Part shown: piece by piece, positions 34,494-53,836 of the stretch
Layout: the number at the start of each line of letters is the position of its first letter
Position numbering within the stretch: the first letter of the stretch is position 1
Assembly: GCA_018830295.1 (NCBI GenBank)
Contig: JAHJSM010000002.1
Location: 14,598-78,597, forward strand
Length of the DNA stretch: 64,000 nt
Reading direction: 5' to 3'
Source: Patescibacteria group bacterium
Lineage (GTDB): Bacteria > Patescibacteriota > Minisyncoccia > Portnoybacterales > UBA2143
Made by a program: the position numbers and the translations under genes
The notes under the pieces: model-generated
The model's input: the letters and a program-made list of their open reading frames with translations, nothing else
The model's database searches: none
Told to the model about the DNA's origin: nothing

Positions 34494-34569
34494 GGGCGCG
34501 TCCGTTAATTGGTTAAACGGCTGGTCTCCAAAACCGGTCCTGCAGGTTCGAGTCCTGCCGCGCCTGCCA
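34494..34569 (+). tRNA. tRNA-Trp (anticodon CCA), CCA encoded
   Basis: acceptor GGGCGCG/CGCGCCT (G1.U72), D CGTT/AACG, anticodon stem CTGGT/ACCGG with loop CTCCAAA, T-arm GCAGG-TTCGAGT-CCTGC. Confidence 0.8.
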
Positions 34570-36084
34570 ATGGGTCAGGTTAGAACCTTTAGTTTTATTA
34601 AGTTCTGCCACGAAATTAAAGGGTTCTTTAAGGTCAAAATTCAGTAACCCATCTCTTAGTATAAAGTTTTTGCCAACAGCCCTTAGAAGGGCTTTTTTGT
34701 CTTCAATACTGCCCTCCTCAAACACTTTATAAGCATGGTTGGTTTGGATAATTAGGTTTTCCGCATAATCATGCCACGCTTGATTGGTTTTATCATGGGC
34801 TTCCAATTTTTCTTTGGCTTCCATTTTGGCGTCTAAAATTTCTCTTTTTTTCTTGCCGTACTCTTCTTTTTCAATTAAGCCGTCAGTATAAAGATTAAGC
34901 AATCTATCTAGTCTGTCCTCGCATTTGTTAAATATATTTTGCCAATACTTAATACTATTTAAATATAATTCTTTTTCGTTATTGTGGCTTTTTTTGACAG
35001 CCGTCATTAAAAGTTCTTTAACCATGTCGCCAATAGTGATTTCCTTTATTTTCAACCTTAATTGTTTTTCAATTTCTTCTTCTCTTAAATAGGGTTGAGC
35101 ACATTTTCCTCTTTTTTGGGTGCAGTGGTAATAAACATGTCCTTTTTTCTCTTCGGCTGTAATTGAGCATCCGCAATAACTACATTTGATGATTCCTCTG
35201 AAGGCGAATTGCCAGCGTTGAGAAATGGGGCGGCTATTCTGGCGGAGGACTTCTTGGATTCGATCAAAGATTACTTTACTGATAAGCGGTTCATGATTTC
35301 CTTCGTATTGTTCGTTTTTCATAACCATCATTCCGTAGTAAAATGGATTTCGAAGTAATCGGGCTAAAACACTTTTACTAACTTTTTTATTTTTTAATTT
35401 ACCCCTTAAGTCAAGCTGGTAAGATTTTTCTGCCATTGTTTCCAAATTGAAGTTTCCGGTGGCATATTCCTCAAAAATTTTCTTAATTATCGAACCTTGG
35501 ATAGGATCAATTTCTATCCGTTTTAATACTTTGTTTTCCTTTTCTAAAAGCCGTTGTTTGTGTTTGTCATAACTTTTGCCCGCGATAACGCCTTTTCCGT
35601 CCATATTAATATATCCTATCGGCGCTAAACCTGGCCATTCCTTTTTAGTAGTTAGCTTATGCCTAAAACCTCTTTTAGTGTTAAAACTTAAATCATCAAC
35701 ATATTTTGTAGCCATGCCGAATTCAATTTGCATTAGAAATTTATCATTAACGCCTTCGTAAGTTTTTTCAGCAGTGACAATTTTTGAAATAGTGCCCTTG
35801 CCTAGCCAATAAATAATTCTGCCTCCATCAAGTTCATTTCTAGCTAGTCGGTCTAATTTCCAAGCGATGATCCCGCAATTTCCAGTTTCTATTTTTTCCA
35901 TCATTTCATTAAAAACAGGTCTGCCAATATCTTTGGCTGACCTGGATTCTTTGAATATCTCTACAATGTTTAATCCTTCCTTTTGCGCTAACTGAGTTAA
36001 TTCCCTAATTTGAGAATCAATTGAGAGTATTTGACGATCTTCCTCTTCTGAAGACTTGCGAACATAAAGAAAATATTGGTTCAT
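34513..36084 (-). CDS. large serine recombinase (phage-type serine integrase)
   Basis: N-terminal resolvase catalytic domain YVRKSSEEEDRQILSIDSQ (Ser nucleophile), recombinase domain, zinc ribbon CSYCGCSITAEEKKGHVYYHC, C-terminal coiled coil; last 18 codons (WQARQDSNLQDRFWRPAV) are encoded on the antisense strand of tRNA-Trp nt 34513-34569. Confidence 0.8.
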   Translation of the reverse strand: MNQYFLYVRKSSEEEDRQILSIDSQIRELTQLAQKEGLNIVEIFKESRSAKDIGRPVFNEMMEKIETGNCGIIAWKLDRLARNELDGGRIIYWLGKGTISKIVTAEKTYEGVNDKFLMQIEFGMATKYVDDLSFNTKRGFRHKLTTKKEWPGLAPIGYINMDGKGVIAGKSYDKHKQRLLEKENKVLKRIEIDPIQGSIIKKIFEEYATGNFNLETMAEKSYQLDLRGKLKNKKVSKSVLARLLRNPFYYGMMVMKNEQYEGNHEPLISKVIFDRIQEVLRQNSRPISQRWQFAFRGIIKCSYCGCSITAEEKKGHVYYHCTQKRGKCAQPYLREEEIEKQLRLKIKEITIGDMVKELLMTAVKKSHNNEKELYLNSIKYWQNIFNKCEDRLDRLLNLYTDGLIEKEEYGKKKREILDAKMEAKEKLEAHDKTNQAWHDYAENLIIQTNHAYKVFEEGSIEDKKALLRAVGKNFILRDGLLNFDLKEPFNFVAELNKTKGSNLTHWQARQDSNLQDRFWRPAV

Positions 36085-38741: not shown

Positions 38742-38931
38742 ATTTTTTTATTTATATTTTAATTATGTCCAAAAACACAAAGCCCCCCACGAGTGATAGT
38801 CCTTTCGGACCATCCAATAGCCTTTCGACCATTGACCCAATCACGAGTACTCAATGAGGAGCTTAATATCGTGATTGGGGTTTTATGCCATATCCCTATG
38901 AGACGAGACTTAGGCAAATTAAATTGTCTGA

Positions 38932-39870
38932 TTATAGATTATCTTTTTTATTCTTTTTAGTCAACCGCTTGTCGTGGAATTTGTGATAGGCTTCTTTTAG
39001 AAAATTGTTTGAGACACTTAAGTATCTTTCGGTTGTGGAAATTGAGCTATGTCCAAGTAATTTTTGGACAAAGTAAAGATTACAGCCGTTGTTGAGCAAA
39101 TCCACGGCGAAAGACCTCCTCATTGTATGAGGCGTGACTTTTTTGACAATCTTGGCTAATTTGCTATATTTGGTTATCAGTAATTGAACGCCCCGAGGTG
39201 ATAGCCGGGCTATTATATCCCTATCATGACGGACAAATAGGGCAGGACAATTATCTTTTCTTGCCTTAAGGTAATTTTCAAGACCATCAATGGCATTTCC
39301 GGACAGAAAAACCAGTCTAATCTTGCCTCCCTTGCCTATGATTGCGAGCTCTTTTTGTTTAAAATTAATTTGTTCCTTATTTAAATTAGTTAGTTCGAAA
39401 AGCCGGAGCCCAGTTGAAAATAAAAGTTCTAAAATTGCTTTATCTCGCAAATTGATTATTGGCTTGGCTTGGTATCTAAGTGGAGCTTTTAGTAATTTCC
39501 TCAATTCGGACCTATCTAAAAAAGTTACTTCTCTGTCACTAATTTTAGGCAATTCAATGATTTGAGGCGTAATAGCTATTTTATAATCTTGTTTTTGAAG
39601 ATGGGCAATAAAACTGCGGATTATTATTAAATAATGCGATTGGGTGGCTAAACTCAAATTTTGGCTTGATTTGCCTTTTAATTTGCTCAACCACAATTGA
39701 TAATTAATTAAATTTCTTTTAGTAATTTGGTCAATTGGAATATTGCCAAGTTGCTTTTTAAAAAGATCTAAGCCACGGCTATAACTAATTAGCGTGTGAT
39801 GACTTTTGCCTCTAATTTTTAGATATTCCAAAAAATTTTTAATGGATTGTGTTAATTTTATTGTTTCCAT
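38932..39870 (-). CDS. tyrosine recombinase (XerC/XerD-like integrase family)
   Basis: C-terminal catalytic block TPHTMRRSFAVDLLNNGCNLYFVQKLLGHSSISTTERYLSV (R...HxxR...Y). Confidence 0.8.
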   Translation of the reverse strand: METIKLTQSIKNFLEYLKIRGKSHHTLISYSRGLDLFKKQLGNIPIDQITKRNLINYQLWLSKLKGKSSQNLSLATQSHYLIIIRSFIAHLQKQDYKIAITPQIIELPKISDREVTFLDRSELRKLLKAPLRYQAKPIINLRDKAILELLFSTGLRLFELTNLNKEQINFKQKELAIIGKGGKIRLVFLSGNAIDGLENYLKARKDNCPALFVRHDRDIIARLSPRGVQLLITKYSKLAKIVKKVTPHTMRRSFAVDLLNNGCNLYFVQKLLGHSSISTTERYLSVSNNFLKEAYHKFHDKRLTKKNKKDNL

Positions 39871-39920: not shown

Positions 39921-40352
39921 TTAATCCGTTATTAACCCTTTTTCCTTAAAAGAAAAGTAATCGTTCTTTAAATTAATTATTATGTGGTCGAACAATTCGA
40001 TTCCCAGTATTTTGCCAGCTTCCGCTATCCTTTTTGTTGTCTTCAAGTCGTCCTCTGACGGCTCAATTTCTCCGCTTGGGTGATTATGTAAAATGATCAA
40101 GCTAGCAGATGATGCCGTTATGGCAGGTCTAAAGGTTTCTCTTGGGTGGATTAAGCCAGCATTCAATACTCCCAGACCTATTAATTCAATCCGTGTTATG
40201 GCATTTCTGGCGTTCAAATATACTGCCCAAAAATGCTCCTTCATTCTGTCGTCTTTTTCTTCTGACTTAAGGACTTCTGTCAAAATCTTAGCTATCTTTT
40301 TAGGATCGCTAATTTTTGTTTTTCTTATTTTATCGCTTATTTTTATTCTCAT
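39921..40352 (-). CDS. RadC-like JAB/MPN domain protein
   Basis: LIILHNHPSGEIEPSEDDLKTTKRI is the JAMM-like HNHPSG motif of RadC (UPF0758). Confidence 0.75.
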   Translation of the reverse strand: MRIKISDKIRKTKISDPKKIAKILTEVLKSEEKDDRMKEHFWAVYLNARNAITRIELIGLGVLNAGLIHPRETFRPAITASSASLIILHNHPSGEIEPSEDDLKTTKRIAEAGKILGIELFDHIIINLKNDYFSFKEKGLITD

Positions 40353-40379
40353 GTTTTGGCTCCTTTCTAAAATTTAAAT

Positions 40380-42330
40380 TATATTTTGGACGCAAAACAA
40401 AAACCCCGGCCGTACAAAATCGACCGGGGCCCTCAACCTCGAAAGGCTGAGACCCAACCTTAAAAAGGTTGAGATGGTTCTATCATACCAAAACCAAAGA
40501 GCGTTTGGCAAATAGAAAAGACCTTAAGTTTTGTAACGGCGCGAACAACGCGCCCAAAAGGCAAATATTCAAGTAAAGATTTTTTAAGTTTCTACCTCCA
40601 TTTTAAGCGATTTTCGGATGAGAGTCAATAGGTCCGAATGGGGATAAACACGCACTGGTAAACGCTTTATAGCGTTTTTGAGGATTGAAGTTGGGTTCAC
40701 ATAATCGGCATTATGAGATTAGCTATAATGTTGGTTTTGAGGTGTTTTGAGCCAGAAAAAAAAGACCGAAGCATAAGAGGACACTTAGCGTTCAAAGGCA
40801 TCTGCGACACGATCTCCAAAAACGCCAGGCAAGTACGTAGTTTATACCGTTTGAGCGATGAACGGGGATATATCTTCAGAATATTAAACTATCCCATTTT
40901 GGCGTTCTACGCTAGTCAGTCTGGGATCGTATGAATTAGGTCATCTTGGATCGAAAAACCCCTTATATGGCTGTTTTTATATCAAAAATCGCCTTCCTCA
41001 GCTACTTTTCTTCTGGGTTGGACAACCGATAGAGTTGTTCGACCAGCGTTGATCGATGTTTTTTGCCATAATCGCCCTTATCAATGAGTCGGTTGAACCA
41101 TTGAGCAATAGCCGGACGACCAAAGTTTCTGTCTTTGACGGTTTCGGCAAAACAAGTAAAACTAGACCAATATGGGTTTTGGTTTGATATTGTATTGAAT
41201 ACTCGATAAATAGATCGCATAGTTAATTTTATATGGGTTTGTTTGATATTGAAGGGCTAACCGAGGGGCTAAGGCACTATCTGTGGTCAGGCTCCTTGCT
41301 GATCAACCTGGGCATTCATCTACCATCTTTTACCATTTTCCCTAGTTAGTTGGCTAACCTCTCTTCATCTTCCCTTACACACCAACCCCCGTTTAGAATA
41401 GCAACGGCTTCCAAAGCCTGTCTATTAGCCTGGAGTACCGCAATCCCTAGGAATCCATTATTTCGTGGTAGGGTCTTGATTGACTGTAGTTGGAATATGA
41501 TGTCCAGCTGTTAAACTTTCATCCATCACCCACCAACCCGAATTCTTTATCGCCCAATCTTTTTACGGTTTAACGATAAAGCAATGTAGACCATAACGCT
41601 CTACTGCGCGGAAATTACGATGCTACCCCCTTATCGTCAGTAGTGTCCGTATTCCTTTATCCCAGCTGTCTTTTATTAAGACAGTAGCTAACAGGTAGCT
41701 ATACTTAGTGGCACTAATGGGCGGCATCCTGGGTTCGCCTTACCACACCCCATTAGGTTTTTAAGAGTTTTATTAGAGCTCTATTGTAATTAAACAATTT
41801 TTTACCAACAACATCGTCAAGGCGAACCTGCTATTGAATCTAAACGATGTTGCTAGTAAAAAACTGATTATTAACAATCTGGCTAAACTTTAAATCTTCA
41901 TATTCTTTTTTTTGTGTTCTAACTGGCTGTTTTCTGTTGATTCTAAATTTGTCTGATTTTTATTTTTAGCGAACTGGACAAAGACATTGGCTATGTCTTG
42001 GATATTTTTTGCAATTTCAATAATCTCCTTTTCTGAGGGGTCAAGTCCATATTTTTCAAGAATTTTTTTGTAATCTGTATTATCGAAGTCCATGATTGTG
42101 AAAATAAAAAAGCCGCCAACGCTATTCAGGCTGGTGGTTTAGAAATAAAAAAAGACTACTAATCAAAACCCAGCACTGAATTGTGCCAGTCCGATGGTAG
42201 TCTTGTGCGCCTCAGTGGACTTAATAAGAGGAGCGACTTGAGGAATATTTAGTTTTATATCTTATTGAGATATTACTTTAGATTACCCAAAGGGTCAAAT
42301 ATTTGTTTTTTTGGCTTTTCAAACGAGCGG
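40380..42330. other. about 2-kb ORF-poor region inside the island with locally elevated GC (about 47% vs about 38% flanks) and multiple hairpins; candidate structured non-coding RNA(s) or decayed genes
   Basis: only three 60-75 aa ORFs in 1.95 kb; hairpins at 40397-40430 and 40432-40484; 21-nt direct repeat at 41171 and 41231; no rRNA, tRNA or group II domain V signature recognised. Confidence 0.3.
41171..41251. repeat. two copies of direct repeat TATGGGTTT(T)GGTTTGATATTG spaced 60 nt apart
   Basis: copies at 41171-41193 and 41231-41251 flank the start of the 72-aa ORF 41002-41220. Confidence 0.5.
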
Positions 42331-42339
42331 ATTTTTGGT

Positions 42340-42361
42340 ATAATCAAAACATAATACTTCA
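42340..42361 (+). promoter_or_regulatory. promoter-like TGGTATAATCAAAACATAATA, 21-nt identical to the rlmN upstream element
   Basis: exact copy of 1718-1738; contains a TATAAT -10 hexamer; 40 nt upstream of the 42402 start. Confidence 0.4.
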
Positions 42362-42401: not shown

Positions 42402-43190
42402 ATGGCAAAAGAAATAACAACTAAATATTTTAAGCAATACAGACAAAAATTAGGTTTTGCCAATCAAATGGATGTTAAAAAGTTTTTTGGAGCCAAGGAT
42501 GTTCTCCCGACCGTAGATTTTAGCTACATAAAGTTATTAAACAAGAGACTTTACGAAATAGTTGATTTAATAAACGCTGTCGTTGCTGATAATATAAAGG
42601 TTGATGATCTGCTTTCGTTTAAAAAAGAAGAGATAGACCATTCTTTTGAGATAATGAAAAAAAACAAAATTTTGCCGAGATTAAATAATCTTGGCAGAAG
42701 ACCCGAACAAGTTTATTTTTCTTGGATGAGGGGCTATGTAATTTCCAGTTTTTTCTTAAAGGCATTGGGCATAGTCTTTGAGGTAGATACTTCAAAAATA
42801 GACCTAATTGGAGATGATGATTTGAGAAATATTGAAACTTTCAGAAGGACTCCAAAAGCGGATTTGGAAATTAAATTAAACGGTAAAGAAAAGGTTAGAA
42901 TAGAAATACAATCTGGTTTTACCGGTATAAATGATATAAAACAACACAAAGTGTTAGAATCAAAACGCATTTTTAGAGATTTGGGAATTCATACATTGGC
43001 AATTCATTTTGATTTATACAACGGACAAGTGGCATTTGTAAAACTAGACGAGATAGAAGACAGAAATATCAATTGGATTACAAGGCAGCAAATGGAAGGG
43101 CAAACGGTTTTTAACATAAATCAGAATTATTTCGTGTGGAAAATTACGCAGAAGCCAATCAAATATAAAAAAATCAAATTTGATTTATGA
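42402..43190 (+). CDS. candidate type II restriction endonuclease (PD-(D/E)xK-like), partner of the adjacent C5-methyltransferase
   Basis: IGDDD...PKADLEIKLNGKEKVRIEIQ fits D-x(n)-ExK; stop overlaps the MTase start (ATGA) implying co-translation. Confidence 0.35.
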   Translation: MAKEITTKYFKQYRQKLGFANQMDVKKFFGAKDVLPTVDFSYIKLLNKRLYEIVDLINAVVADNIKVDDLLSFKKEEIDHSFEIMKKNKILPRLNNLGRRPEQVYFSWMRGYVISSFFLKALGIVFEVDTSKIDLIGDDDLRNIETFRRTPKADLEIKLNGKEKVRIEIQSGFTGINDIKQHKVLESKRIFRDLGIHTLAIHFDLYNGQVAFVKLDEIEDRNINWITRQQMEGQTVFNINQNYFVWKITQKPIKYKKIKFDL

Positions 43191-44314
43191 GTAAAAAAAT
43201 CAAAATAATAGATTTGTTTTCTGGAGTTGGGGGGTTGAGTTATGGCTTTGCTCGCGATGACAATTTTGAGATAGTAGCAGCAAATGAGATTTTGGAAAAT
43301 ATGGCTAAGGCCTATTTGTTAAATCATCCAGGAGTAAAAGTTTATGTTGACGACATAAAGAATTTTAACGCGAAAATTATTAAGGGTGATCTGCGAATTA
43401 AAACAGGGAAAATTGATATAATTGTTGGCGGACCGCCTTGTCAGGCCTATTCAACAGTTGGCAAAAGATTAATTAACGATTCGCGAGGAAAACTTTTTCA
43501 AGAATATTATCGGGTTTTGAAGGAATTCAATCCGAAATTTTTTCTTTTTGAAAATGTAAAAGGATTGCTATCTATGCAAGGAGGAGAATTATTGAAAACA
43601 ATTATGTCGCTTTTTGAATCGTTGGGATACGAGACGCAATATAAGGTTTTAAACGCGGCTGACTACGGCGCGCCGCAAATAAGAGAAAGAGTCATAATTA
43701 TAGGGTCAAAATTAAAAACTAAATTTCAGTATCCAAAACCCACACATTATGATTCGAAAGAAAAACAAAGTTTGTTTAATGATAATTTGCTTCCTTATTT
43801 AACTCTTGAGGACGCCATAAGTGATTTGCCATTTATTAAAGCGGGAGAGGAAATTTTTGAATATATCTCGGAGCCAAAAAACGATTTTCAGAAAATTATG
43901 AGAGAAAATGTTCAGGAAAAGTTGATGGATCATAACGCTCCAAAAAACAACGAAAGATTAATTAAGATAATGGAATTGTTACCGGATGGCGGCACACCTG
44001 AAGATTTGCCGAAAGAGTTGCGACCAACATCGGGATTTAAAAATACTTACTGTCGTTTGTGGTGGAAACGACCATCAACTACAATTACGAGAAATTTAGG
44101 CACACCATCATCTTCCAGGTGTATTCATCCGAAAGCGCCAAGGCCGTTAACCACAAGAGAGGGGGCAAGAATTCAATGTTTTCCAGATGATTATCAATTT
44201 TATGGTTCAAGGGGCGACAGGAACTTACAAATAGGAAATGCCGTTCCGACATTTCTTTCTGTCGCGTTGGCAAAATCGATTTTAAACAATTTTCAAACAG
44301 AAAAATTGATTTAA
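43187..44314 (+). CDS. DNA (cytosine-5)-methyltransferase
   Basis: motif I DLFSGVGG, motif IV GGPPCQAYS, motif VI ENV, motif X QIGNAVP. Confidence 0.85.
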   Translation: MSKKIKIIDLFSGVGGLSYGFARDDNFEIVAANEILENMAKAYLLNHPGVKVYVDDIKNFNAKIIKGDLRIKTGKIDIIVGGPPCQAYSTVGKRLINDSRGKLFQEYYRVLKEFNPKFFLFENVKGLLSMQGGELLKTIMSLFESLGYETQYKVLNAADYGAPQIRERVIIIGSKLKTKFQYPKPTHYDSKEKQSLFNDNLLPYLTLEDAISDLPFIKAGEEIFEYISEPKNDFQKIMRENVQEKLMDHNAPKNNERLIKIMELLPDGGTPEDLPKELRPTSGFKNTYCRLWWKRPSTTITRNLGTPSSSRCIHPKAPRPLTTREGARIQCFPDDYQFYGSRGDRNLQIGNAVPTFLSVALAKSILNNFQTEKLI

Positions 44315-44408
44315 TTTACAGAAAAAGGTTTCTAGCATCTTTTTATGCAGATGCGCCTGGCGTTTCGTTGGACGATCTAATGAAATAATCAATGAATATA
44401 TTTTATTT

Positions 44409-47400
44409 ATGGCAACTTATTATCAAAACAGATATAGATATCGAGGAGGATATAATAAAAGAGCTTCGGCTAATATTAGAACAAAAGAAAACAAAGCGCC
44501 GATAGTCCATACTGATCCAACATCTTCTCGTTGGCAGAATCTTCTTAAATATTATGGAGCCTGTATTTCGGTTGAGAATTCTGGAGAAATTACGCTTTTT
44601 TCTTTTAAAGAAGGGACAGAATTTTTACAAGTGCCAGTAATGGATAAAGAGTGGGTTGCGTCTGGGAAAGAGCGATTAGAGTTTGAAGGGCAAAATGAAA
44701 AAATACAAACATTAATCAACGGGCCACGGTGGAGTCGGAGCCCGCTTTCTTTTTTTTACGGTTTTCCATGCCACATCAAACATATTGAACAATCAAGGCG
44801 CGGCTGGTCAGGTCAAATTATTCAGCCGATTTTGATTTTCGGCGTTGATCTAATACGGACGGAAACTGGGTACGCGTTTGTATTACAATCAGATAGACCA
44901 AGAATAAATTCAGCTTTTCTTACTGATAAAAGTTTATTAACCAGTGTTGAGGAAAGAAAACAAGTAGCTGAAGCGGTTTTGGGGGCATGGGACGAAGAAA
45001 AAAGCAGAGAGCAGAACCTTAAAACCATTCTTAGCGCATTTGCCGAATTACTACCGCAAGAGGTTTTATTTTCAAAAGATATTTTACGCGACAAAACGAC
45101 TGAATTGAAAGCAGAAAACAGTATTTTGCCTCTTGGAATAATTTTTCGAAGCGTGGATTCAAAATATACATACGGATTAGAACAGGAGTTGAGCGAACTG
45201 CGGGGCGTTGCCACTCCGAATGATGTTTGGCGCGTCATTTTGGACCGAAATACAGAAGATGGAAAAAATAACAAGAATGACGAGTTTTTGGAAATAACTG
45301 GACTGAACGATGAACAGCGCGGAGCGGTCAAAAGTGCTTTTAATAATATAGTTAGCGTAATCACAGGGCCGCCAGGAACTGGAAAATCGCAAATTGTCCT
45401 CAATATTATTGCTAATGCCTTATTACATAACGAGAGCGTCTTGTTCGGAAGTAAAAATCATAAGGCAGTTGATGTTGTTATTGAACGGTTGTTGCGACTA
45501 CAGTCAGAACCAGTCATTTTAAAATATGGGCAAAAAGAACGAGAGGTTGAGTTTGCAGAAGCGCTTTTATCTGCGATTGAGCGCGCATCAAGTTATGACA
45601 GTCAAATATTAGAACGCGAAATCGGAGAATATAAGAAAAAATTAGAATTAATCAGAGAGGAAGAAGAAGAGGCGAAAAAATCTCTTTTTCGTATTCTTGA
45701 CCGGAGAAATCGCATCAGCCATCTTGATGCCGTTCTTGAATTAATTAAAACGGAGTTGCCTTCACCAATTTCTAAAAATTTAAAGCAGTATAAAAAGATT
45801 GAAAGAAATTATAACTTTAATAGATTACTTGGTCTTTTGGGTCGTTTGATAAAAGAAATTGATGGGGACTTGAGTTTTGTTTCGCGCATCCTTTCTTTTT
45901 TTGGTTTAACCATAGAGAAGCGGGTATTGAAAGCTTCAAAGTCTTTGCTTATTGTTATGCCTATTCAGGGCATTTCTTTTCCGATCAAATCAGAACATAA
46001 TTGCAGGGAGATTTTGACTGTTGCGCGTTTACTGAAGCGATGGATGGATAATCAATCAGAACTTCTAAGCGTTGTGCGCGAAAATGAAAATGAACAACGA
46101 ATAGAAATTTTACGAGAGAGAATAACAAAAAGTAAAGAGCGCGCAATTGATGTCAGTATCAGATATGTTGATGCGCTGATGAAGCGTCGCTTGAAATCAT
46201 TAGGAAGTAAGGAGCGACGCGATATTGCTGATTATGTAAGTATTGTTCGGCGACTAGAAGGCGATGTAATTGGCGGCGATTTTGCCAAAAGATTATACAA
46301 TGAAAGAAAGCGGATGTTTAAGAGCGTGGTTAGAGCATTTCCGGCAATGGCTGTAACAAACCTGTCTGTACGCCATGCGCTTCCATTAAGCGCTGATGTT
46401 GTTGATATAGTGGTTATTGACGAAGCGTCGCAATGCGATATTGCATCAGCACTTCCGCTCCTGTATAGAGCAAAACGGGCTGTAATTATTGGAGATCCGA
46501 ATCAGCTTACCCATATTTCTCTTTTACATCGCGCAGACGATCAGCAATTGCAGCAACAGATGGGGTTAACCTCCACGGATGACCAGCGTTTTCTTTACAG
46601 CATCAACTCTCTTTTTGAACTTGCAAGAAGTACTGTTGGCACAGGAGCAAAGTTTACGCACCTGCTTGAACATTATCGTAGTCGCGCAGAGATTATTGGA
46701 TTTTCAAATAAAAGATTTTACGGCAATAGGTTGAGCGTGTGGACGGATTATAGGCGATTGCGCGGAACAGGACATCCAGACGCTGTTGTTTGGCATGATG
46801 TTGTTGGAGAAGTTATTCGTCCATCTGTCGGAAGCGCTTATAATCTTGATGAAGCAAAAGAAATTGTTGTGTTGATTGAGGAGATTATTAAAAGAATTGC
46901 GGCGCATGGCGATGATTATTCTGTATCGCTTGGCGTCGTGACTCCATTCAGGGAACAAGCGAATAAGATTAGAGATTTAATAGGGCAAAAAATAGATGCA
47001 GCTCAGCTACGAAAGTTGGATTTTATAGTCGAAACTGCTCATAAATATCAAGGCGATGAGAAAGATATAATGATTTTCTCCCCCGTAGTATCCCGTAAAA
47101 TTCAAAAACGCTCACTCGGATTTTTAGGTAGTACGGTTAATTTATTTAATGTAGCGATTACTCGCGCGCGGGCAGAATTACATATTGTCGGTGATAGAGT
47201 TGCTTGTGCTCAATCGGGCATTCTACATCTTTCGAAGTTTGTGCAATATGTCGATGAATTAGAGCCAGAAAATAAAGACCAAAAAGGTGGAAAATTTGAG
47301 TCGCCATGGGAGGAAGTTTTGTACGATGCGCTCGCTCGGAAAGGGATTAAGACAATCCCTCAATATCCTCTCCATCAATATCGTCTTGATCTTGCTATCG

Positions 47401-47606
47401 TTGATTCAGAAATTCCCATTGATATAGAAATTGATGGAGAGATGTGGCATCGTGATATTGATGGGGGGCGATTGCTTTCAGATTTAAAGCGGGACCAACA
47501 TCTTATTATGTACGGCTGGCAAGTTAAGCGGTTTTGGGTGTATCAGCTCCAAAATGACTTAGAACAATGCGTGCAAGAAATAAAGGAAATCATTAAGAAA
47601 AAATGA
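44409..47606 (+). CDS. SF1 (Upf1/DNA2-like) helicase fused to C-terminal DUF559/Vsr-like endonuclease domain; unknown about 300-aa N-terminal domain
   Basis: Walker A TGPPGTGKSQ, motif II VVIDEASQ, AAA_12-like C-lobe (FSPVVSR...GSTVNLFNVAITRARAELHIVGD); C-terminal ...YPLHQYRLDLAIVDSEIPIDIEIDGEMWH resembles the DUF559 (PD-(D/E)xK) fold. Confidence 0.7.
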   Translation: MATYYQNRYRYRGGYNKRASANIRTKENKAPIVHTDPTSSRWQNLLKYYGACISVENSGEITLFSFKEGTEFLQVPVMDKEWVASGKERLEFEGQNEKIQTLINGPRWSRSPLSFFYGFPCHIKHIEQSRRGWSGQIIQPILIFGVDLIRTETGYAFVLQSDRPRINSAFLTDKSLLTSVEERKQVAEAVLGAWDEEKSREQNLKTILSAFAELLPQEVLFSKDILRDKTTELKAENSILPLGIIFRSVDSKYTYGLEQELSELRGVATPNDVWRVILDRNTEDGKNNKNDEFLEITGLNDEQRGAVKSAFNNIVSVITGPPGTGKSQIVLNIIANALLHNESVLFGSKNHKAVDVVIERLLRLQSEPVILKYGQKEREVEFAEALLSAIERASSYDSQILEREIGEYKKKLELIREEEEEAKKSLFRILDRRNRISHLDAVLELIKTELPSPISKNLKQYKKIERNYNFNRLLGLLGRLIKEIDGDLSFVSRILSFFGLTIEKRVLKASKSLLIVMPIQGISFPIKSEHNCREILTVARLLKRWMDNQSELLSVVRENENEQRIEILRERITKSKERAIDVSIRYVDALMKRRLKSLGSKERRDIADYVSIVRRLEGDVIGGDFAKRLYNERKRMFKSVVRAFPAMAVTNLSVRHALPLSADVVDIVVIDEASQCDIASALPLLYRAKRAVIIGDPNQLTHISLLHRADDQQLQQQMGLTSTDDQRFLYSINSLFELARSTVGTGAKFTHLLEHYRSRAEIIGFSNKRFYGNRLSVWTDYRRLRGTGHPDAVVWHDVVGEVIRPSVGSAYNLDEAKEIVVLIEEIIKRIAAHGDDYSVSLGVVTPFREQANKIRDLIGQKIDAAQLRKLDFIVETAHKYQGDEKDIMIFSPVVSRKIQKRSLGFLGSTVNLFNVAITRARAELHIVGDRVACAQSGILHLSKFVQYVDELEPENKDQKGGKFESPWEEVLYDALARKGIKTIPQYPLHQYRLDLAIVDSEIPIDIEIDGEMWHRDIDGGRLLSDLKRDQHLIMYGWQVKRFWVYQLQNDLEQCVQEIKEIIKKK

Positions 47607-47755: not shown

Positions 47756-47785
47756 TATTGACTTTTTTATCTAATATGATATTAT
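47756..47785 (+). promoter_or_regulatory. sigma-70-like promoter TTGACA-18-TATTAT, about 230 nt upstream of the subtilase gene (long structured 5' leader)
   Basis: consensus -35 and near-consensus -10; leader contains an 11-bp hairpin CATCTACATA...TATGTAGATG (47865-47910) and a GC hairpin plus T-tract near 47925-47965. Confidence 0.4.
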
Positions 47786-48016
47786 ACCGATAGAGAAAGT
47801 GAGTAACAATTTGATAACCTAACCTTTGAGCTTTTCGCTTGGAGTATGGTTTAAATCCATCTACATAAAAACGGTCTTCTGGCCGGCACTATGTAGATGG
47901 TCTTTGTCCGAAAGGGCATTGGGTGATCTGAAAGGATTGCCGCCGACGGAAGGCCTTTTTTGTTGGCAAAATTTATTGGGGGAAATCAATTTAAATAATT
48001 TAATAATCAAAAAAAT

Positions 48017-51000
48017 ATGAACAAAAAAACAATAAAAAAATACATGGCGGGGTTTATGGTGATAGCGTTTCTTACGGGAACGCTGGCGCCAATGTCGTTG
48101 GTTTTTGCGGCGGATGAAAAAATAACAAAAGGTGAATTAGAATTAAAAAAATTAACAACTGGGAAGTTAATAAATTTTGATGGCGAGGAAAAAGTAGAAA
48201 CCTTTAGCGCGAATGAGAATTTAAAAAAGTCGGCGGATGTAAAACAATCGCAAAAACAAAATTATGTAGAGGGCGAGGTTTTAGTGAAATTTAAGGAACA
48301 GAAAATAAATTTAGAGCAGTTGTCTGGCAGAATGAAATCCGCGTGGTTTGCCACTGGAAAAAATTTAGATAAAAAAGAAGATATTAGAAAAAGTAATATC
48401 TCTGTTTTCAAAACAAAAAGTGATGAGTCGGCGGAGGCAATGGTTGAGAGATTAAAGAATGATTCGAATGTAGAATATGCTGAACCGAATTATATACGAC
48501 AATGGACATCAATAACTCCAAATGATACTGATTTCAGTAAACTATGGGGATTACATAACACAACCAATGATGCTGATATTGATGCTCCAGAGGCATGGGA
48601 TATTTTTACAGGATCTAATTCTGTTGTTGTGGCGGTTTTAGATTCCGGCATTGCTTATAATCATCCTGATTTGATAAATAATATGTGGAATGGGAACACT
48701 AACCATGGTTGGGATTTTTTTAATGATGATGATAATCCACTTGATGATAATGGTCATGGAACTCATGTGGCTGGAACTATTGGAGCTGAAGGCAATAATG
48801 GTATTGGCATAACTGGAGTTAATTGGGATGTAAAATTAATGGCATTAAAAGTGGGAAGTTATGATGGTAATGTTGGTGATATCGTAGAAGCAATTGATTT
48901 TGCTATAAATAATGGTGTTAAAATAATCAATGCAAGTTTTAGCGGTTCCGAAAATTCACAAGCAGAATATGATGCAATAGACCGTTTTAGACAAGCTGGC
49001 GGAATTTTCATCGCGGCGGCTGGGAATGGTGGCGCTGATCAAATTGGTGATAATAACGATTCAAGTCCACAATATCCAGCTGACTATGCTTTGGATAATA
49101 TTATTTCCGTTGCTGCTACAGATCAAAATGATAATTTAACTGAATGGTCTAACTATGGTGTTGCTGCTGTTGATGTTGGAGCTCCTGGGGTGAATATTTA
49201 TAGTATGGTTGCGGACACCAATGTTTTTTCTGAAAATTTTGAAGATGATATTTATAAAGTTGGGCATGGCGGTACGGATAGTCATTGGATAATAGGTTAT
49301 GATGGATTTTCTAAAGTTGCTTATTCTGATAGTTCTTATCCTTATTCGCCAGACGCATATACTTGGTTAATGCAAAAAGAAGATTTAGATCTTTCGGACA
49401 GTTCTATTGTTGGAGCTACATTAGGTTTTACTATATGGTGCGATACTCCGATTAGTGCAACTTTTGATGATTATATATATACTTCTTATCGTTCGGGCGG
49501 AAGTTGGTATTATTCAACAAAATATGATGAACTACAAATTAATTTAGATGGAGGTAGTAGTTGGATAGACAATGGTCATACGGGTTATTATAAAAGATAT
49601 ACTGAAAATATTTCAGATTACCTTACAAATGATTTTAATTTTAGTTTTGATTGGATTACGGATTCTTCTATCGATTATAACTATGGATGTACAATTGATG
49701 ATATTGTAATCACAAAATACACCGATGGTTCAGATGAAAATTATGATTATGCCGACGGCACTTCAATGGCCGCTCCTCATGTTACAGGACTGGCGGCTTT
49801 GATTTGGGGATATAAATCGGAGCTTTCTTATGCTGAAGTTAAAAATGTTATTTTGACTACTGGGGATAATTTATCTTCTCTTGCTAACAAAACCGTAACC
49901 GGAAAAAGAATTAATGCTTTTAACGCTCTCAATTCTTTGATAGATTTAACTGCTCCAGAATTAAGTGAAGTAAATCCAGTGCCAACGCTGACCAATGATA
50001 ATGCTCCTGATTATACATTCAGTTCAACCGAAGCGGGAACAATCAATTATAGCGGCGGATGCGTTAGTGATACCACCGATGCGGCTGAAGGCGATAACGC
50101 AATAACCTTTAATGAGTTAGATGATGGAGTTTATGGTGGATGCGCGATTACAGTAACTGATGCCAACAATAACGAAAGCGCGCCTTTGGCTATAACTACA
50201 TTTACCATAGACACAACCTCGCCAGTAATTACTTTATCTGGTATTAATCCAGTTGAACTTCTTTTAGATGAGGATTACACAGAATATGGCGCTACTGCCG
50301 AAGACAATATTGATGGAGATATTTCAGGGGAAATAGAAATTGACGATAGTTCAATTGATACATCCACAACAGGAACTTATGAAGTAACTTACAATGTTTC
50401 AGATGCGGCAGGGAATGAGGCAGATGAAGTAATAAGAACTGTTAATGTTGGCGAGATTCCCAACACTCCGCCAGTAATGGAATCAATAACTTTAGAGCCA
50501 AATCCCGCATATACAAATACTGACATTACCGCAACGGCAGTTGCTTCTGATGGTAATGGCGATATAGTTACTTTTTCTTACCAATGGGAAAAGAATGGCG
50601 AGAATATGGGAGATGACAGCGATACATTGCTAAGCGATAATTTTGTCAAAGGCGATACAATAAAAGTTGAAGTTATTCCGAATGATGGAACTATTGATGG
50701 CGACTCAATGGAATCAGACCCGATAACAATTTCAAACTCAATTCCAACTCAACCAACGGTTTCTATTTCGCCGAATCCAGCTTATGCGAATAATGACTTA
50801 ACTTGTACTCCAAATGGCTCAACTGACGCTGATAGTGATGGATTTAACTATGTATATCAATGGTATAAAGATGATGTTATTCAAGAAGGTTATACTTCAA
50901 ACACAGTGCTTGCATCGCAAATTGCCGCAGGCGATGTTTGGAAATGCTCGGTTGTCGCGGATGACGGCGAGGCGCAAAGCGTTACTGGCGAAGATTCCGT

Positions 51001-53836
51001 TACCATATTGGAAGTTCCGGACACAACCCCGCCAATCATCACTTTGATTGGAGAAAACACAGTAACTTTGGAAGTCGGCGCGGAATACAATGACGCTGGC
51101 GCCACCGCGACTGATAATGTTGACGGTGATGTTAGCGTATCCATTATCGCTGGCGGAGATACGGTTGATGCGGACACACTGGGAACTTACACCATAACCT
51201 ATAATGTTTCGGATAGCGCTGGTAATCCTGCCACAGAAGTAACCCGAACTGTAAATGTAGTTGACACCACCGCACCAGTAATTACTCTACTCGGCGACAA
51301 CCCAGTTAATCTTGAAGTTGGCGCGATTTATAACGACGCTGGGGCAACAGCCAGTGATAACTATGACGGAAACATTACCGCCAACATAATTACTGTAAAT
51401 CCTGTTAATTCAAGCATAATCGGCGCGTACACTGTGACTTATAATATTACCGACTCTTCTGGCAATACAGCCGATGAAGTCAACAGAACGGTCAATGTAG
51501 TTGATACTACTGTACCGATTATCACATTACTCGGAGAAAATCCTTTCACAATAGCGGTTAATTCGACTTACGAAGATGCCGGTGCCACTGCTCTTGATAA
51601 CTATGATGGCGATCTAACCGCAAATATTGTAACGGTTAATTCTGTGGATATTAATAATGTTGGTGCCTATCAAGTCACCTACAATGTCACTGATGTCGCA
51701 GGTAATTCCGCCGTTGAAGTCGCAAGAACTGTTAATGTGGTGGATGTTTCAACTCCAATTATTACCTTACTCGGCGACAACCCGACAACTGTTGAGTTTG
51801 GCACTGAATATGAAGACGCTGGCGCCACTGCCGCGGACGATGTTGACGGCGATATTACTGATAGTATTGTGGCCGTAAATAATGTTGATACAAGTATTTT
51901 GGGTTCGTATTCTGTAACCTATAATGTTATTGATTCCTCGAGCAATCAAGCGCCCGAAGTCGTGAGAACTGTAAATGTAGTAGATACTGTAGTTCCTGTT
52001 ATGACTTTAATTGGGGATGATGCCGTTGATGTTGAAGTTGGCTATGAATATAATGATAAAGGAGCCACTGCTTCCGATAATTACGACGGAGATATTACGG
52101 ATAGTATAGCGACAGTAAACAATGTTGATACAAATACAGTTGGAACATATTCAGTCACTTATAATGTTTCTGATTCTTCAGGAAACGCTGCTACTGAAGT
52201 AATTAGAACGGTAATAGTCGGACCCGATTTAACTTCTCCTGTAATTACTTTAAATGGAGGAGACATGAATATTTATGATGGATCAACATATATTGACTCA
52301 GGAGCCACTGCTTCTGATAATATTGATGGAGATATTACTGGCAGTATAGTGATAGTAGATAATGTTGACGCAAATACAGTTGGAACATATTCAGTCACTT
52401 ATAATGTTTCCGACATAGCTGGCAATTCAGCTGACGAAGTAGTCAGGATAATAACCGTTTTGCCCGTAGAAGAAGAGCAAGTAATGATTGCTGCCGATAT
52501 GGATATAAGTTCAAGTTTTCAAGAAATTTTAATTGGCAGTAACGCTCCTGCAACTTCCAATATTAATGTTCCATCCGACGCCACAAACGCAAAATTAAAT
52601 GTTTCAGCTTTAATGAGTGGCACTGATGTTACCTTACCGACTGGTCTTACTATTAATTCAGAAACAAGTATTGGTGAAGTAAATGTTCAAATTCCGCAAA
52701 GCACTTTGATTTCTGGCGAAGCTGGCTGGACAGGCGAAATTAATTTGCCGCAAGTTCAGGAAAATTCCAGCGTAAGCGCTACTCCTGATTCCGGCAATAC
52801 CGCGACAGTATCATCGGTTATAGAAATAGGTTTTGGCGATACTTTATTGAATTTTGATAAAGCCGTGAGGATAAAAATAACTGGTCAAGCGGGTAAATAT
52901 GTTGGATATTCGCGCAATGGTGTTTTTACTCCGATTACAAATGTTTGCAGCGCTGACTCGCAAGTCGTTGGCGATGCTTTGGCGGAAGGGAGTGAATGTA
53001 AAATAAATGTTGGTTCGGATTTAGTGATTTGGACTAAACACTTTACTAAGTTTGCTACTTATACGCAGACTGCTATACCTGGTAGTGGCGGAGGCGGTGG
53101 AGGTGGAGGTGGAGGTGGAGGCGTTTCAGTTATCACACCAACTAATTATTCAGTTAAAATAAATAGTAATGCGACTTCTACTGATAATCGGAATGTGAGA
53201 TTAACTTTAGCGGCAACTAATGCTGTATCAATGGCAGTTTCCAATGAGCCAACCTTTACGGGTATTAGTTTTGAAACTTATGCCACAACTAAAGACTGGA
53301 CATTAAGTGAAGGCGTGGGACAAAAAACCGTTTATGTTCGTTTCCGAAGTTCAAGCGGTGTAACGGTGAATACTTCTGTATCTATAAATTTGACTGCTTC
53401 TGTCTTGATGCCTTTAACGCCATCTATTGCAAGCAGCGCGTCGCAAGGTCAAGTTTTGGGTGAGCAAAAATTCGCCGAAGGAGCTTTAATTCGAGCCATT
53501 GGCGATATTGATGTCTATATTGTTAAATACATAAGCGAAAAACAATTCAAGAGATTGATTTTAAGCCCATCTGTCTTTAATAGTTATCAGCATTTAGAAT
53601 GGAGCGACATACTTGATATAGAAAAGAGCGTGGTTGATTCTTTCGCCACTTCCGAATTAGTAAGAGCCGTTAATGATGATAAGGTATATAAATTATATCC
53701 GAATGGAGATATAGGTGAGAAATGTTGGATTGAAACTAGCGAGGTGTTTATTGAGAATGGTTTTGACTGGGATGCTGTTTATGAAATTAATGCGTTTGAT
53801 AGAGATTCTTATATCACAGGACAAAATATAAAATAA
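48017..53836 (+). CDS. giant secreted subtilisin-like serine protease (peptidase S8) with I9 propeptide, about 8 tandem Ig-like (DUF5011/HYR-like) domains, poly-Gly linker and C-terminal domain
   Basis: signal peptide; catalytic triad contexts VVAVLDSGIAYNHPD (Asp), DDNGHGTHVAGTIGA (His), GTSMAAPHVTGLAALI (Ser); repeated about 80-aa units P(V/I)ITL.G(D/E)N...E.G..Y.D.GATA.D..DGD(I/L)T...; GSGGGGGGGGGGGGV. Confidence 0.8.
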   Translation: MNKKTIKKYMAGFMVIAFLTGTLAPMSLVFAADEKITKGELELKKLTTGKLINFDGEEKVETFSANENLKKSADVKQSQKQNYVEGEVLVKFKEQKINLEQLSGRMKSAWFATGKNLDKKEDIRKSNISVFKTKSDESAEAMVERLKNDSNVEYAEPNYIRQWTSITPNDTDFSKLWGLHNTTNDADIDAPEAWDIFTGSNSVVVAVLDSGIAYNHPDLINNMWNGNTNHGWDFFNDDDNPLDDNGHGTHVAGTIGAEGNNGIGITGVNWDVKLMALKVGSYDGNVGDIVEAIDFAINNGVKIINASFSGSENSQAEYDAIDRFRQAGGIFIAAAGNGGADQIGDNNDSSPQYPADYALDNIISVAATDQNDNLTEWSNYGVAAVDVGAPGVNIYSMVADTNVFSENFEDDIYKVGHGGTDSHWIIGYDGFSKVAYSDSSYPYSPDAYTWLMQKEDLDLSDSSIVGATLGFTIWCDTPISATFDDYIYTSYRSGGSWYYSTKYDELQINLDGGSSWIDNGHTGYYKRYTENISDYLTNDFNFSFDWITDSSIDYNYGCTIDDIVITKYTDGSDENYDYADGTSMAAPHVTGLAALIWGYKSELSYAEVKNVILTTGDNLSSLANKTVTGKRINAFNALNSLIDLTAPELSEVNPVPTLTNDNAPDYTFSSTEAGTINYSGGCVSDTTDAAEGDNAITFNELDDGVYGGCAITVTDANNNESAPLAITTFTIDTTSPVITLSGINPVELLLDEDYTEYGATAEDNIDGDISGEIEIDDSSIDTSTTGTYEVTYNVSDAAGNEADEVIRTVNVGEIPNTPPVMESITLEPNPAYTNTDITATAVASDGNGDIVTFSYQWEKNGENMGDDSDTLLSDNFVKGDTIKVEVIPNDGTIDGDSMESDPITISNSIPTQPTVSISPNPAYANNDLTCTPNGSTDADSDGFNYVYQWYKDDVIQEGYTSNTVLASQIAAGDVWKCSVVADDGEAQSVTGEDSVTILEVPDTTPPIITLIGENTVTLEVGAEYNDAGATATDNVDGDVSVSIIAGGDTVDADTLGTYTITYNVSDSAGNPATEVTRTVNVVDTTAPVITLLGDNPVNLEVGAIYNDAGATASDNYDGNITANIITVNPVNSSIIGAYTVTYNITDSSGNTADEVNRTVNVVDTTVPIITLLGENPFTIAVNSTYEDAGATALDNYDGDLTANIVTVNSVDINNVGAYQVTYNVTDVAGNSAVEVARTVNVVDVSTPIITLLGDNPTTVEFGTEYEDAGATAADDVDGDITDSIVAVNNVDTSILGSYSVTYNVIDSSSNQAPEVVRTVNVVDTVVPVMTLIGDDAVDVEVGYEYNDKGATASDNYDGDITDSIATVNNVDTNTVGTYSVTYNVSDSSGNAATEVIRTVIVGPDLTSPVITLNGGDMNIYDGSTYIDSGATASDNIDGDITGSIVIVDNVDANTVGTYSVTYNVSDIAGNSADEVVRIITVLPVEEEQVMIAADMDISSSFQEILIGSNAPATSNINVPSDATNAKLNVSALMSGTDVTLPTGLTINSETSIGEVNVQIPQSTLISGEAGWTGEINLPQVQENSSVSATPDSGNTATVSSVIEIGFGDTLLNFDKAVRIKITGQAGKYVGYSRNGVFTPITNVCSADSQVVGDALAEGSECKINVGSDLVIWTKHFTKFATYTQTAIPGSGGGGGGGGGGGGVSVITPTNYSVKINSNATSTDNRNVRLTLAATNAVSMAVSNEPTFTGISFETYATTKDWTLSEGVGQKTVYVRFRSSSGVTVNTSVSINLTASVLMPLTPSIASSASQGQVLGEQKFAEGALIRAIGDIDVYIVKYISEKQFKRLILSPSVFNSYQHLEWSDILDIEKSVVDSFATSELVRAVNDDKVYKLYPNGDIGEKCWIETSEVFIENGFDWDAVYEINAFDRDSYITGQNIK
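51020..52460 (+). repeat. tandem about 240-bp (about 80 aa) repeats encoding Ig-like domains within the subtilase gene
   Basis: units starting near 51020, 51260, 51500, 51740, 51980, 52220 (and diverged copies at 50210 and 50990) all begin TT(A/P)P(V/I)ITL(L/I)G(D/E)N. Confidence 0.7.

What the first reader, a model, noticed from the sequence alone, without database searches (positions are those of the whole stretch)
42402..47606. Candidate defence module: restriction endonuclease/Dcm pair followed by an SF1 helicase-DUF559 nuclease fusion
A putative PD-(D/E)xK restriction endonuclease (262 aa) is translationally coupled (ATGA) to a C5-cytosine methyltransferase with all canonical motifs. 95 nt later comes a 1065-aa protein combining an unknown about 300-aa N-terminal domain, a Upf1-like SF1 helicase core (GTGKS, DEAS) and a C-terminal DUF559/Vsr-like endonuclease domain. 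Single-protein helicase-nuclease fusions of this kind resemble Nhi-type anti-phage effectors. Together with the R-M pair on a mobile element this looks like a defence islet, possibly a helicase-assisted restriction system.
Basis: partly seen in the sequence, partly recalled or inferred. Interest (0 to 1): 0.55.

Follow-up and report, generated by a model that had tools for sequence, protein, structure and literature searches.

The report
Restriction-modification pair beside solo helicase-nuclease
A Patescibacteria chromosome carries an ordinary two-gene restriction-modification system (probably cutting ACGT) next to an unrelated, self-contained helicase-nuclease whose closest described relatives are the helicases of the predicted "CoCoNuT" anti-virus systems. 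The two are neighbours, not one machine.

Summary
All three ORFs are real and at the stated coordinates. The 262-aa and C5-methyltransferase genes form a self-contained Type II R-M cassette. In 80 metagenomic loci the 262-aa gene is followed by the Dcm gene in 78 and by the helicase in none. ACGT is the most depleted of all 256 tetramers in the window (4 seen, 83 expected) and in cassette-carrying contigs, so ACGT is the likely target. The nuclease fold of the 262-aa protein could not be shown: there is no Pfam or PDB match and the model is weak.

The 1065-aa protein has a family-specific N-domain, a Upf1-like SF1 helicase with a large insertion, and a Vsr-like MTES_1575 nuclease. It is not Nhi, Hhe or Mokosh. 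Its N-domain profile matches every helicase found in cnuH-cnuA-cnuB(McrB)-cnuC(McrC) operons, which are Type III-B CoCoNuT. The window protein lacks those partners, as do 30 of 36 relatives with enough flanking DNA. Close homologues (73-81% identical) sit in different neighbourhoods, often beside recombinases or defence genes.

Verdict: a plausible defence islet of two independent modules. "Helicase-assisted restriction" is not supported. Interest is moderate.

The parts
42316..42344 (+). Promoter-like site (TTTTCA-17-TGgTATAAT) upstream of the R-M pair
   Evidence: This is a consensus match only; the number of such sites in the region is no higher than in shuffles.
42402..43190 (+). 262-aa putative Type II restriction endonuclease (family without a Pfam model or solved structure)
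43187..44314 (+). C5-cytosine DNA methyltransferase (Dcm-type), overlapping the RE stop by ATGA
44409..47606 (+). 1065-aa stand-alone CnuH-like SF1 helicase-nuclease
44514..45296 (+). Family-specific N-terminal domain (aa 36-296); aa 1-35 form a basic Tyr/Arg-rich, low-confidence tail
45297..47273 (+). Upf1/Dna2-like SF1 helicase core (aa 297-955). Walker A is at 45366-45389 and Walker B (DE) at 46419-46424. An unmatched insertion of roughly 250 aa (about aa 401-660, nt 45609-46388) lies between them.
   Evidence: AAA_11 is split into 2 stretches. PDB matches cover aa 297-401 and 614-938 only.
47310..47594 (+). C-terminal Vsr-like PD-(D/E)xK nuclease domain (MTES_1575/DUF559, aa 968-1062)
   Evidence: D994, E1007, D1009, H1014, D1025 and R1028 are at least 90% conserved.
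34513..36084 (-). Context: large serine recombinase whose 3' end overlaps tRNA-Trp (34494-34569)
38932..39870 (-). Context: tyrosine recombinase (Xer/phage-integrase type)
39921..40352 (-). Context: RadC-like JAB domain protein

Best explanation
Two independent defence modules lie side by side in a variable, recombinase-bearing stretch of a Patescibacteria chromosome.

(1) A Type IIP restriction-modification cassette. The C5-methyltransferase marks the host's own sites, most likely A(m5C)GT, and the 262-aa enzyme cuts unmethylated incoming DNA at the same site. The gene pair, the methyltransferase and the ACGT avoidance are shown. The nuclease chemistry and the exact site are inferred.

(2) A single-polypeptide helicase-nuclease belonging to a stand-alone lineage that is sister to the CnuH helicases of Type III-B CoCoNuT systems. 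By analogy with Upf1/Dna2-type SF1B enzymes, it would load on single-stranded RNA or DNA of an invader. It would translocate 5'->3' using ATP (Walker A K326, DE671-672). Its own C-terminal Vsr-like nuclease would cut the substrate. The N-terminal domain and the insertion would act as the substrate-recognition or regulatory parts. Here the architecture, family relationships and genomic contexts are shown, while activity, substrate and the defence role are inferred.

The three genes may be co-transcribed, because no terminator-like site separates them, but they do not form an obligate system.
For: R-M module. Dcm follows the RE in 78 of 80 loci and the two exceptions are contig ends. The methyltransferase is bona fide. 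The RE family has 1152 close homologues, many of them 70-89% identical, in Patescibacteria and other lineages. It is small, with 159 clusters at 50% identity among 1.84 billion proteins. ACGT is the lowest of 256 tetramers in the window (obs/exp 0.05) and in pooled cassette contigs (0.21, median 0.11). The ratio is 0.79 in CPR-like contigs without the cassette and 0.98 in other phyla. ACGT is a known m5C Type II site, M.Hpy99XI.

Helicase module. Full-length homologues at 26-83% identity occur in many bacterial phyla and in archaea. The N-domain profile hits all 8 helicases sitting in helicase / coiled-coil / AAA_5(McrB) / DUF2357(McrC) operons. Those operons match the published Type III-B CoCoNuT layout. 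The window clade is a solo lineage in the NJ tree, and 30 of 36 well-flanked loci lack CnuB/C. No neighbour gene recurs. Neighbours include Type I R-M, PtuA, MADS, AriA, PD-T4-6, integrases and TraG. Close homologues sit beside a Type ISP R-M, ThsB-TIR, serine recombinase plus HTH_17, or SMC plus PDDEXK. The catalytic residues of both helicase and nuclease are conserved.

Independence. No co-occurrence was found in either direction.
Confidence: 0.6

Rival explanations
1. The three genes form one functional system. The helicase-nuclease assists or extends restriction, for example by processively degrading DNA cut by the REase, or as a two-pronged DNA plus RNA restriction as proposed for CoCoNuT/R-M super-islands.
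For: The genes share a strand, are separated by 94 nt, and have no terminator-like or promoter-like site between Dcm and the helicase. The CoCoNuT paper notes higher-order association of CnuH-containing systems with DNA restriction systems. One relative (L011) sits inside a Type I R-M operon and another is next to a Type ISP R-M.
Against: None of the 78 intact R-M loci has the helicase. None of 80 GTDB helicase loci has this RE or Dcm within 10 kb. The close-homologue contigs show other neighbours. The arrangement was seen only in this genome (L001).
Confidence: 0.1
2. The helicase-nuclease is a DNA repair or recombination enzyme of these reduced genomes (Dna2/AddAB-like end processing, possibly working with exonuclease VII). 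It is not a defence gene.
For: It has sequence similarity to DNA2 (5eax, 8.5e-16). xseA-xseB lie directly adjacent in three different CPR contigs, on either side of the gene. Housekeeping genes are common neighbours.
Against: No xseA was found in the window or in any other locus fetched up to that search (the GTDB, metagenome, IMG/VR and first close-homologue loci). Homologues 73-81% identical occupy unrelated chromosomal positions. They are often accompanied by serine recombinase plus HTH_17, which fits a mobile cargo gene. The best library matches are all to anti-phage helicases (MkoC, PDC-S37, MkoA, Hhe, ProA). The sister clade is embedded in McrBC-type operons.
Confidence: 0.15
3. The helicase's Vsr-like domain performs very-short-patch repair of T:G mismatches created by deamination of the m5C made by the neighbouring Dcm, like dcm-vsr in E. 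coli.
For: It lies directly downstream of a Dcm gene. JGI annotates homologues as 'very-short-patch-repair endonuclease'.
Against: The domain matches MTES_1575/DUF559; no Pfam Vsr model is among the 19 families matched. No Dcm homologue lies within 10 kb in 80 family loci. No ATGT/ACAT excess signals heavy deamination. A 1000-aa helicase is not needed for VSP repair.
Confidence: 0.03
4. The 262-aa protein is not an endonuclease, for example a regulator or another accessory of an orphan methyltransferase.
For: No nuclease family, PADLOC REase model or solved structure matches it. The fold search is inconclusive.
Against: Its pairing with Dcm is strict. It shows strong purifying selection (73-89% identity across phyla). 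The order of conserved acidic and basic residues on an alpha-beta-beta-beta-alpha-beta core fits PD-(D/E)xK. ACGT avoidance is extreme, as expected from a cutting enzyme and not from methylation alone.
Confidence: 0.1

Closest known systems
CnuH helicase of Type III-B CoCoNuT systems (Bell, Koonin et al., eLife 2024; PMC11090510)
   Same: Both have a UPF1-like SF1 helicase, a large insertion after Walker A and a directly fused Vsr-like PD-(D/E)xK nuclease. The domain preceding the helicase is homologous: the A3 profile hits all 8 CnuH-type proteins found here, with E from 1e-30 to 2e-9. Identity over the core is 35-41%.
   Different: The window has no cnuA, cnuB (McrB GTPase) or cnuC (McrC). 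The window protein has no N-terminal wHTH. It falls in a separate, solo clade. The CoCoNuT function itself is only predicted.
Hhe (Gao et al. 2020) and the NCBIfam 'ProA' anti-phage proteins (about 1800-2200 aa, DUF4011 proteins)
   Same: Both are single-gene systems combining an AAA_11/AAA_12 helicase with an MTES_1575/Vsr-like nuclease. Partial matches cover aa 635-1064.
   Different: The window protein is half the size and has no DUF4011 or DUF3320. It scores 122 and 213 bits against cut-offs of 2000 and 1500. The N-domain profile does not hit the DUF4011 proteins. Only a 36-column motif is shared, at hhalign probability 12%.
Mokosh (MkoA/MkoC) and PADLOC candidate PDC-S37
   Same: Best PADLOC scores to the helicase C-terminal half (MkoC 196 bits, PDC-S37 180 bits).
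   Different: The matches are partial (aa 573-942 and 652-1064). There is no PLD nuclease, which is the Mokosh effector.
Nhi (nuclease-helicase immunity; recalled from Bari et al. 2022, not read here)
   Same: A single polypeptide combining a Upf1-like SF1 helicase with a nuclease.
   Different: In Nhi the nuclease is N-terminal and of a different family (my recollection, not tested). No PADLOC family named Nhi is among the 18 matched.
ACGT-specific m5C Type II R-M systems (M.Hpy99XI; HpyCH4IV/MaeII/TaiI isoschizomers)
   Same: A C5 methyltransferase paired with a small REase, and extreme ACGT under-representation as reported for H. pylori.
   Different: No sequence comparison with those enzymes was possible because REBASE was not available. 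The specificity here is inferred from k-mer avoidance only.

Membership tests
Type II restriction-modification system (m5C) | C5-cytosine methyltransferase with the canonical catalytic motifs | tested here: met
   PF00145 at 1.4e-76; TIGR00675 at 230 bits against a cut-off of 100.65; M.HaeIII at 1e-40. Motifs I, IV, VI, VIII and X are readable.
Type II restriction-modification system (m5C) | Cognate endonuclease gene adjacent and inherited together with the methyltransferase | tested here: met
   78 of 80 loci have RE followed by Dcm; the other 2 end at a contig edge.
Type II restriction-modification system (m5C) | Endonuclease fold or catalytic motif in the partner protein | tested here: inconclusive
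Type II restriction-modification system (m5C) | Site-specific cleavage blocked by cognate methylation | not testable with these tools
   Indirect only: ACGT obs/exp is 0.05 in the window and 0.21 in cassette contigs, against 0.79 in controls.
Type III-B CoCoNuT | CnuH: UPF1-like SF1 helicase with a helical insertion and a fused Vsr-like nuclease | tested here: met
   The N-domain is homologous to that of the CnuH proteins found in cnuHABC operons.
Type III-B CoCoNuT | CnuB (McrB-type GTPase with coiled coil) and CnuC (McrC, DUF2357) encoded alongside | tested here: not met
   tblastn with CnuA/B/C from L017 and L034 finds nothing in the 64-kb window. Downstream of the helicase lie a LOOT RNA and an S8 peptidase gene.
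Type III-B CoCoNuT | wHTH at the CnuH N-terminus | tested here: not met
   Residues 1-35 are a low-confidence basic tail and the domain starts at about residue 36. Some distant relatives do carry wHTH-like or Zn-ribbon extensions.
Hhe / DUF4011 helicase-nucleases (including NCBIfam ProA) | DUF4011 N-terminal domain and a full-length match to the equivalog model | tested here: not met
   No PF13195 hit. Hhe scores 122 of 2000 bits and ProA 213 of 1500 bits. hhalign probability is 12% over 36 columns. A genuine DUF4011 protein (L077) scores 5.7e-52.
Mokosh type II (MkoC) | Helicase fused to a PLD-family nuclease | tested here: not met
   No PLD domain; the nuclease is MTES_1575. The MkoC match covers only the helicase part.
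Nhi | N-terminal nuclease followed by a C-terminal SF1 helicase; match to an Nhi model | tested here: not met
   The nuclease is C-terminal. No Nhi family is among the PADLOC matches at E<=0.1. Whether that PADLOC release holds an Nhi model was not verified.
Dcm-Vsr very-short-patch repair pair | Vsr-family endonuclease linked to dcm | tested here: not met
   The domain matches MTES_1575/DUF559, and no Pfam Vsr model is among the 19 matched families. No Dcm is near 80 family members.

The most novel reading that the evidence does not exclude
The stand-alone CnuH-like helicase-nuclease is an autonomous single-gene immune effector, widespread from Patescibacteria to DPANN archaea. In this reading it uses a previously unseen N-terminal fold to recognise invader RNA or ssDNA. 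It would also represent the core from which Type III-B CoCoNuT systems were built by recruiting McrBC.
Probability: 0.3. Interest if true: 0.55.

Novelty: new variant of a known kind. Interest (0 to 1): 0.36.

Why it matters
First, the work identifies a compact one-gene relative of the still untested CoCoNuT helicases. It would be far easier to express and assay than the five-gene systems, and it could settle whether this helicase class attacks RNA or DNA. Second, it points to a restriction-enzyme family with no Pfam model or structure that is widespread in Candidate Phyla Radiation bacteria. It comes with a concrete, testable prediction of its site (ACGT), which is useful for understanding gene flow and phage resistance in these uncultured, reduced-genome organisms. 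Neither point overturns current ideas.

Tried and rejected
- Searched for a conserved three-gene unit. It was rejected by reciprocal synteny checks.
- Searched for a recurrent partner gene of the helicase by all-against-all BLAST of 138 neighbours. None was found.
- Tested xseA as a partner. It appears only in three related CPR contigs.
- Searched the PDB with a profile of 46 diverse RE homologues and scanned each of them against Pfam. Nothing was found.
- Tested N-domain homology to DUF4011. Only a short shared motif (P-L-x-L-x-P-V ... P-R-[IF]-N-x-x-L) emerged, which is insufficient.
- Searched plasmids and IMG/VR. The RE family is absent from PLSDB and IMG/VR. No full-length helicase relative is on plasmids, and only about five are on viral contigs.
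- Looked for island borders. There is no repeat of the tRNA-Trp 3' end in the window. The two inverted LOOT matches that bracket the island turned out to be leaders of the flanking genes, not element ends.
- Tested deamination as the cause of ACGT loss. There is no ATGT/ACAT excess.
- Literature searches for 'ProA' and 'MTES_1575' gave nothing specific on this family.
Full report
**Observation.** The first two overlap by ATGA. The third starts 94 nt after the Dcm stop. The 375-aa protein is a clear C5-cytosine methyltransferase. It matches PF00145 at 1.4e-76, TIGR00675 at 230 bits and M.HaeIII at 1e-40, and all its catalytic motifs are visible. The 1065-aa protein carries AAA_11 and AAA_12 (Upf1/Dna2-type SF1 helicase) plus MTES_1575/DUF559 at residues 968-1062. 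GPPGTGKSQ and DEASQ are invariant in 50 homologues. An identical copy of the 262-aa protein is on record from a 'Patescibacteria group bacterium' contig of 744,622 bases.

**The R-M pair.** The 262-aa protein has no hit in Pfam, NCBIfam, PADLOC or PDB sequences. That holds even with a profile of 46 diverse homologues. It belongs to a small but widely transferred family. There are 1152 close homologues, many of them 70-89% identical, in Patescibacteria, Desantisbacteria, Ignavibacteria and others, several named 'restriction endonuclease' by NCBI. Yet only 159 clusters at 50% identity exist among 1.84 billion proteins.

In 80 metagenomic loci fetched with this protein, a Dcm homologue at 71-87% identity follows it directly in 78. 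The two exceptions stop at a contig end. That is the signature of a two-gene R-M cassette.

**Likely specificity.** ACGT occurs 4 times in the 64-kb window against 83 expected from a maximal-order Markov model. That makes it the lowest of all 256 tetramers. In the pooled 701 kb of cassette-carrying contigs it is again the lowest, at 201 observed against 935 expected, a ratio of 0.21. The median ratio is 0.11 in the 36 loci of 10 kb or more, and 10 of those have none. In ten CPR-like contigs without the cassette the ratio is 0.79, and in the helicase loci from other phyla it is 0.98.

ATGT and ACAT are not enriched, so the loss looks like avoidance of cutting rather than m5C deamination. ACGT is a known m5C Type II motif, M.Hpy99XI. 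I therefore predict A(m5C)GT specificity with moderate confidence. The control set is small, and other depleted palindromes (GGCC, CTAG, TCGA, GATC, AGNCT) show that this genome hosts or has hosted several systems.

**The helicase-nuclease.** Full-length homologues at 26-83% identity occur in many bacterial phyla and in archaea. PADLOC and NCBIfam give only partial matches, all to anti-phage helicases: MkoC, PDC-S37, MkoA, Hhe and ProA. These cover the second helicase lobe and the nuclease, and score far below the curated cut-offs (ProA 213 of 1500, Hhe 122 of 2000).

**Link to CoCoNuT.** The decisive lead came from the literature. Type III-B CoCoNuT systems contain CnuH, a UPF1-like helicase with a large helical insertion after Walker A and a directly fused Vsr-like nuclease. 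They also contain CnuA (coiled coil), CnuB (McrB GTPase) and CnuC (McrC).

Among the fetched relatives, L017 (Rhizobiaceae) and L034 (Opitutaceae) show this order. The helicase comes first, then a coiled-coil protein, then a coiled-coil plus AAA_5 protein. In L017 a 528-aa DUF2357 protein follows, and L034 has a tblastn match to it. tblastn finds the same CnuB/CnuC pair in six more loci. A profile of our N-domain hits all eight of those helicases nearly end to end (E from 1e-30 to 2e-9). In total it hits 60 of 115 helicase ORFs, but none of the roughly 2000-aa DUF4011 proteins.

In a rough NJ tree the McrBC-linked helicases form one clade. The window protein and its CPR relatives form a separate solo clade, next to other solo forms. 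Of 36 loci with at least 4 kb on both sides, 30 lack CnuB/C. The window also has none. The window protein is therefore a stand-alone member of the CnuH(Vsr) family, not a CoCoNuT system.

**Are the modules coupled?** They are not obligately coupled. None of the 78 R-M loci has the helicase. None of 80 GTDB helicase loci has this RE or Dcm within 10 kb. No neighbour gene recurs among 15 full-length relatives.

Homologues 73-81% identical sit in unrelated places. They are found next to xseAB with HTH_17 and a serine recombinase. Others lie beside a Type ISP R-M, the glycine-cleavage genes with a Type IIG-like enzyme nearby, SMC plus PDDEXK proteins and LepA. Pooled neighbours of distant relatives include Type I R-M, PtuA, MADS, AriA, PD-T4-6, integrases and TraG, but also housekeeping genes. 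This pattern fits a horizontally moving single-gene cassette that tends to land in variable or defence regions.

In the window there is no terminator-like site between Dcm and the helicase, and a promoter-like site lies at 42316-42344. Co-transcription is therefore possible, but that does not make the genes a system.

**Setting.** The region from 34.5 to 47.6 kb has lower GC (0.33-0.37 against 0.40-0.43). It holds a large serine recombinase whose end overlaps tRNA-Trp, a tyrosine recombinase and RadC. No att-like repeat was found, so the borders of any element remain undefined.

**Verdict.** This is a plausible defence islet made of two independent modules. One is an ordinary Type II R-M from an uncharacterised REase family, with a testable ACGT prediction. 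The other is a solo variant of the CnuH helicase-nuclease. The 'helicase-assisted restriction' idea and the Nhi label are not supported. Nothing here is experimentally established. Interest is moderate.

Noticed in passing
window 38795-38916 (-) and 47816-47941 (+): Two Rfam LOOT RNA matches (73.9 and 67.6 bits; gathering score 46.4) in inverted orientation bracket the island. Each is followed by a GC-rich stem plus a T run. About 50-75 nt further on comes the start of a secreted or membrane protein gene: the DUF4352 protein at 38741 (-) and the 1939-aa S8 peptidase at 48017 (+). The second copy also has a promoter-like site at 47758-47785. This looks like a cis-acting leader (riboswitch-like) rather than a free sRNA, and it places LOOT in a Patescibacteria genome.
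   Followed up: partly
window 40353-41889: A stretch of about 1.5 kb has no ORF over 73 aa on either strand. Its GC is higher (about 0.40) than the flanks. Nothing there reaches an Rfam gathering score; the best sub-threshold match is anti-hemB at 26 bits. It has no similarity in any fetched locus except the same genome (L001). It could be a decayed gene or an unknown RNA.
   Followed up: partly
whole window: Besides ACGT (0.05), several other palindromes are strongly under-represented: GGCC 0.31, CTAG 0.33, TCGA 0.34, GATC 0.35, CCGG 0.45 and AGNCT 0.30. This suggests a history of many R-M systems in this lineage.
   Followed up: partly
L162 6211-11243; L165 3055-8174; L214 4447-9430: In three CPR contigs the close helicase homologue lies directly next to xseA-xseB, upstream in one and downstream in two. 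In two of them a small HTH_17 gene abuts its start, and a large serine recombinase lies within a few kb in all three. This may be an insertion hot spot or a lineage-specific link to exonuclease VII. It is not seen in the window or in any other locus fetched up to that search.
   Followed up: partly
window 34494-36084: The 3' end of a 523-aa large serine recombinase gene (-) overlaps tRNA-Trp (+) by 57 nt, as expected for an element integrated at a tRNA gene. No repeat of the tRNA end was found elsewhere in the window.
   Followed up: partly
L011 6994-18747 (Ohtaekwangia koreensis): A full-length relative of the helicase sits inside a same-strand run with HsdS, an AAA_21/AAA_15 ATPase, an HNH protein and HsdM. 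In other words it is embedded in a Type I R-M / ATPase-nuclease cluster.
   Followed up: no
helicase homologues P0167, P0171, P0175, P0185-P0209, P0172, P0211: Family members carry variable N-terminal add-ons ahead of the conserved N-domain. These include a topoisomerase-type zinc ribbon (PF01396), a wHTH-like segment and WYL (PF13280), which suggests interchangeable sensor or regulatory heads.
   Followed up: no
window 48017-53836: The 1939-aa surface protein (S8 subtilase plus seven Ig-like repeats) contains a run of 12 glycines near residue 1600. It is immediately followed by a CAP-domain secreted protein.
   Followed up: no
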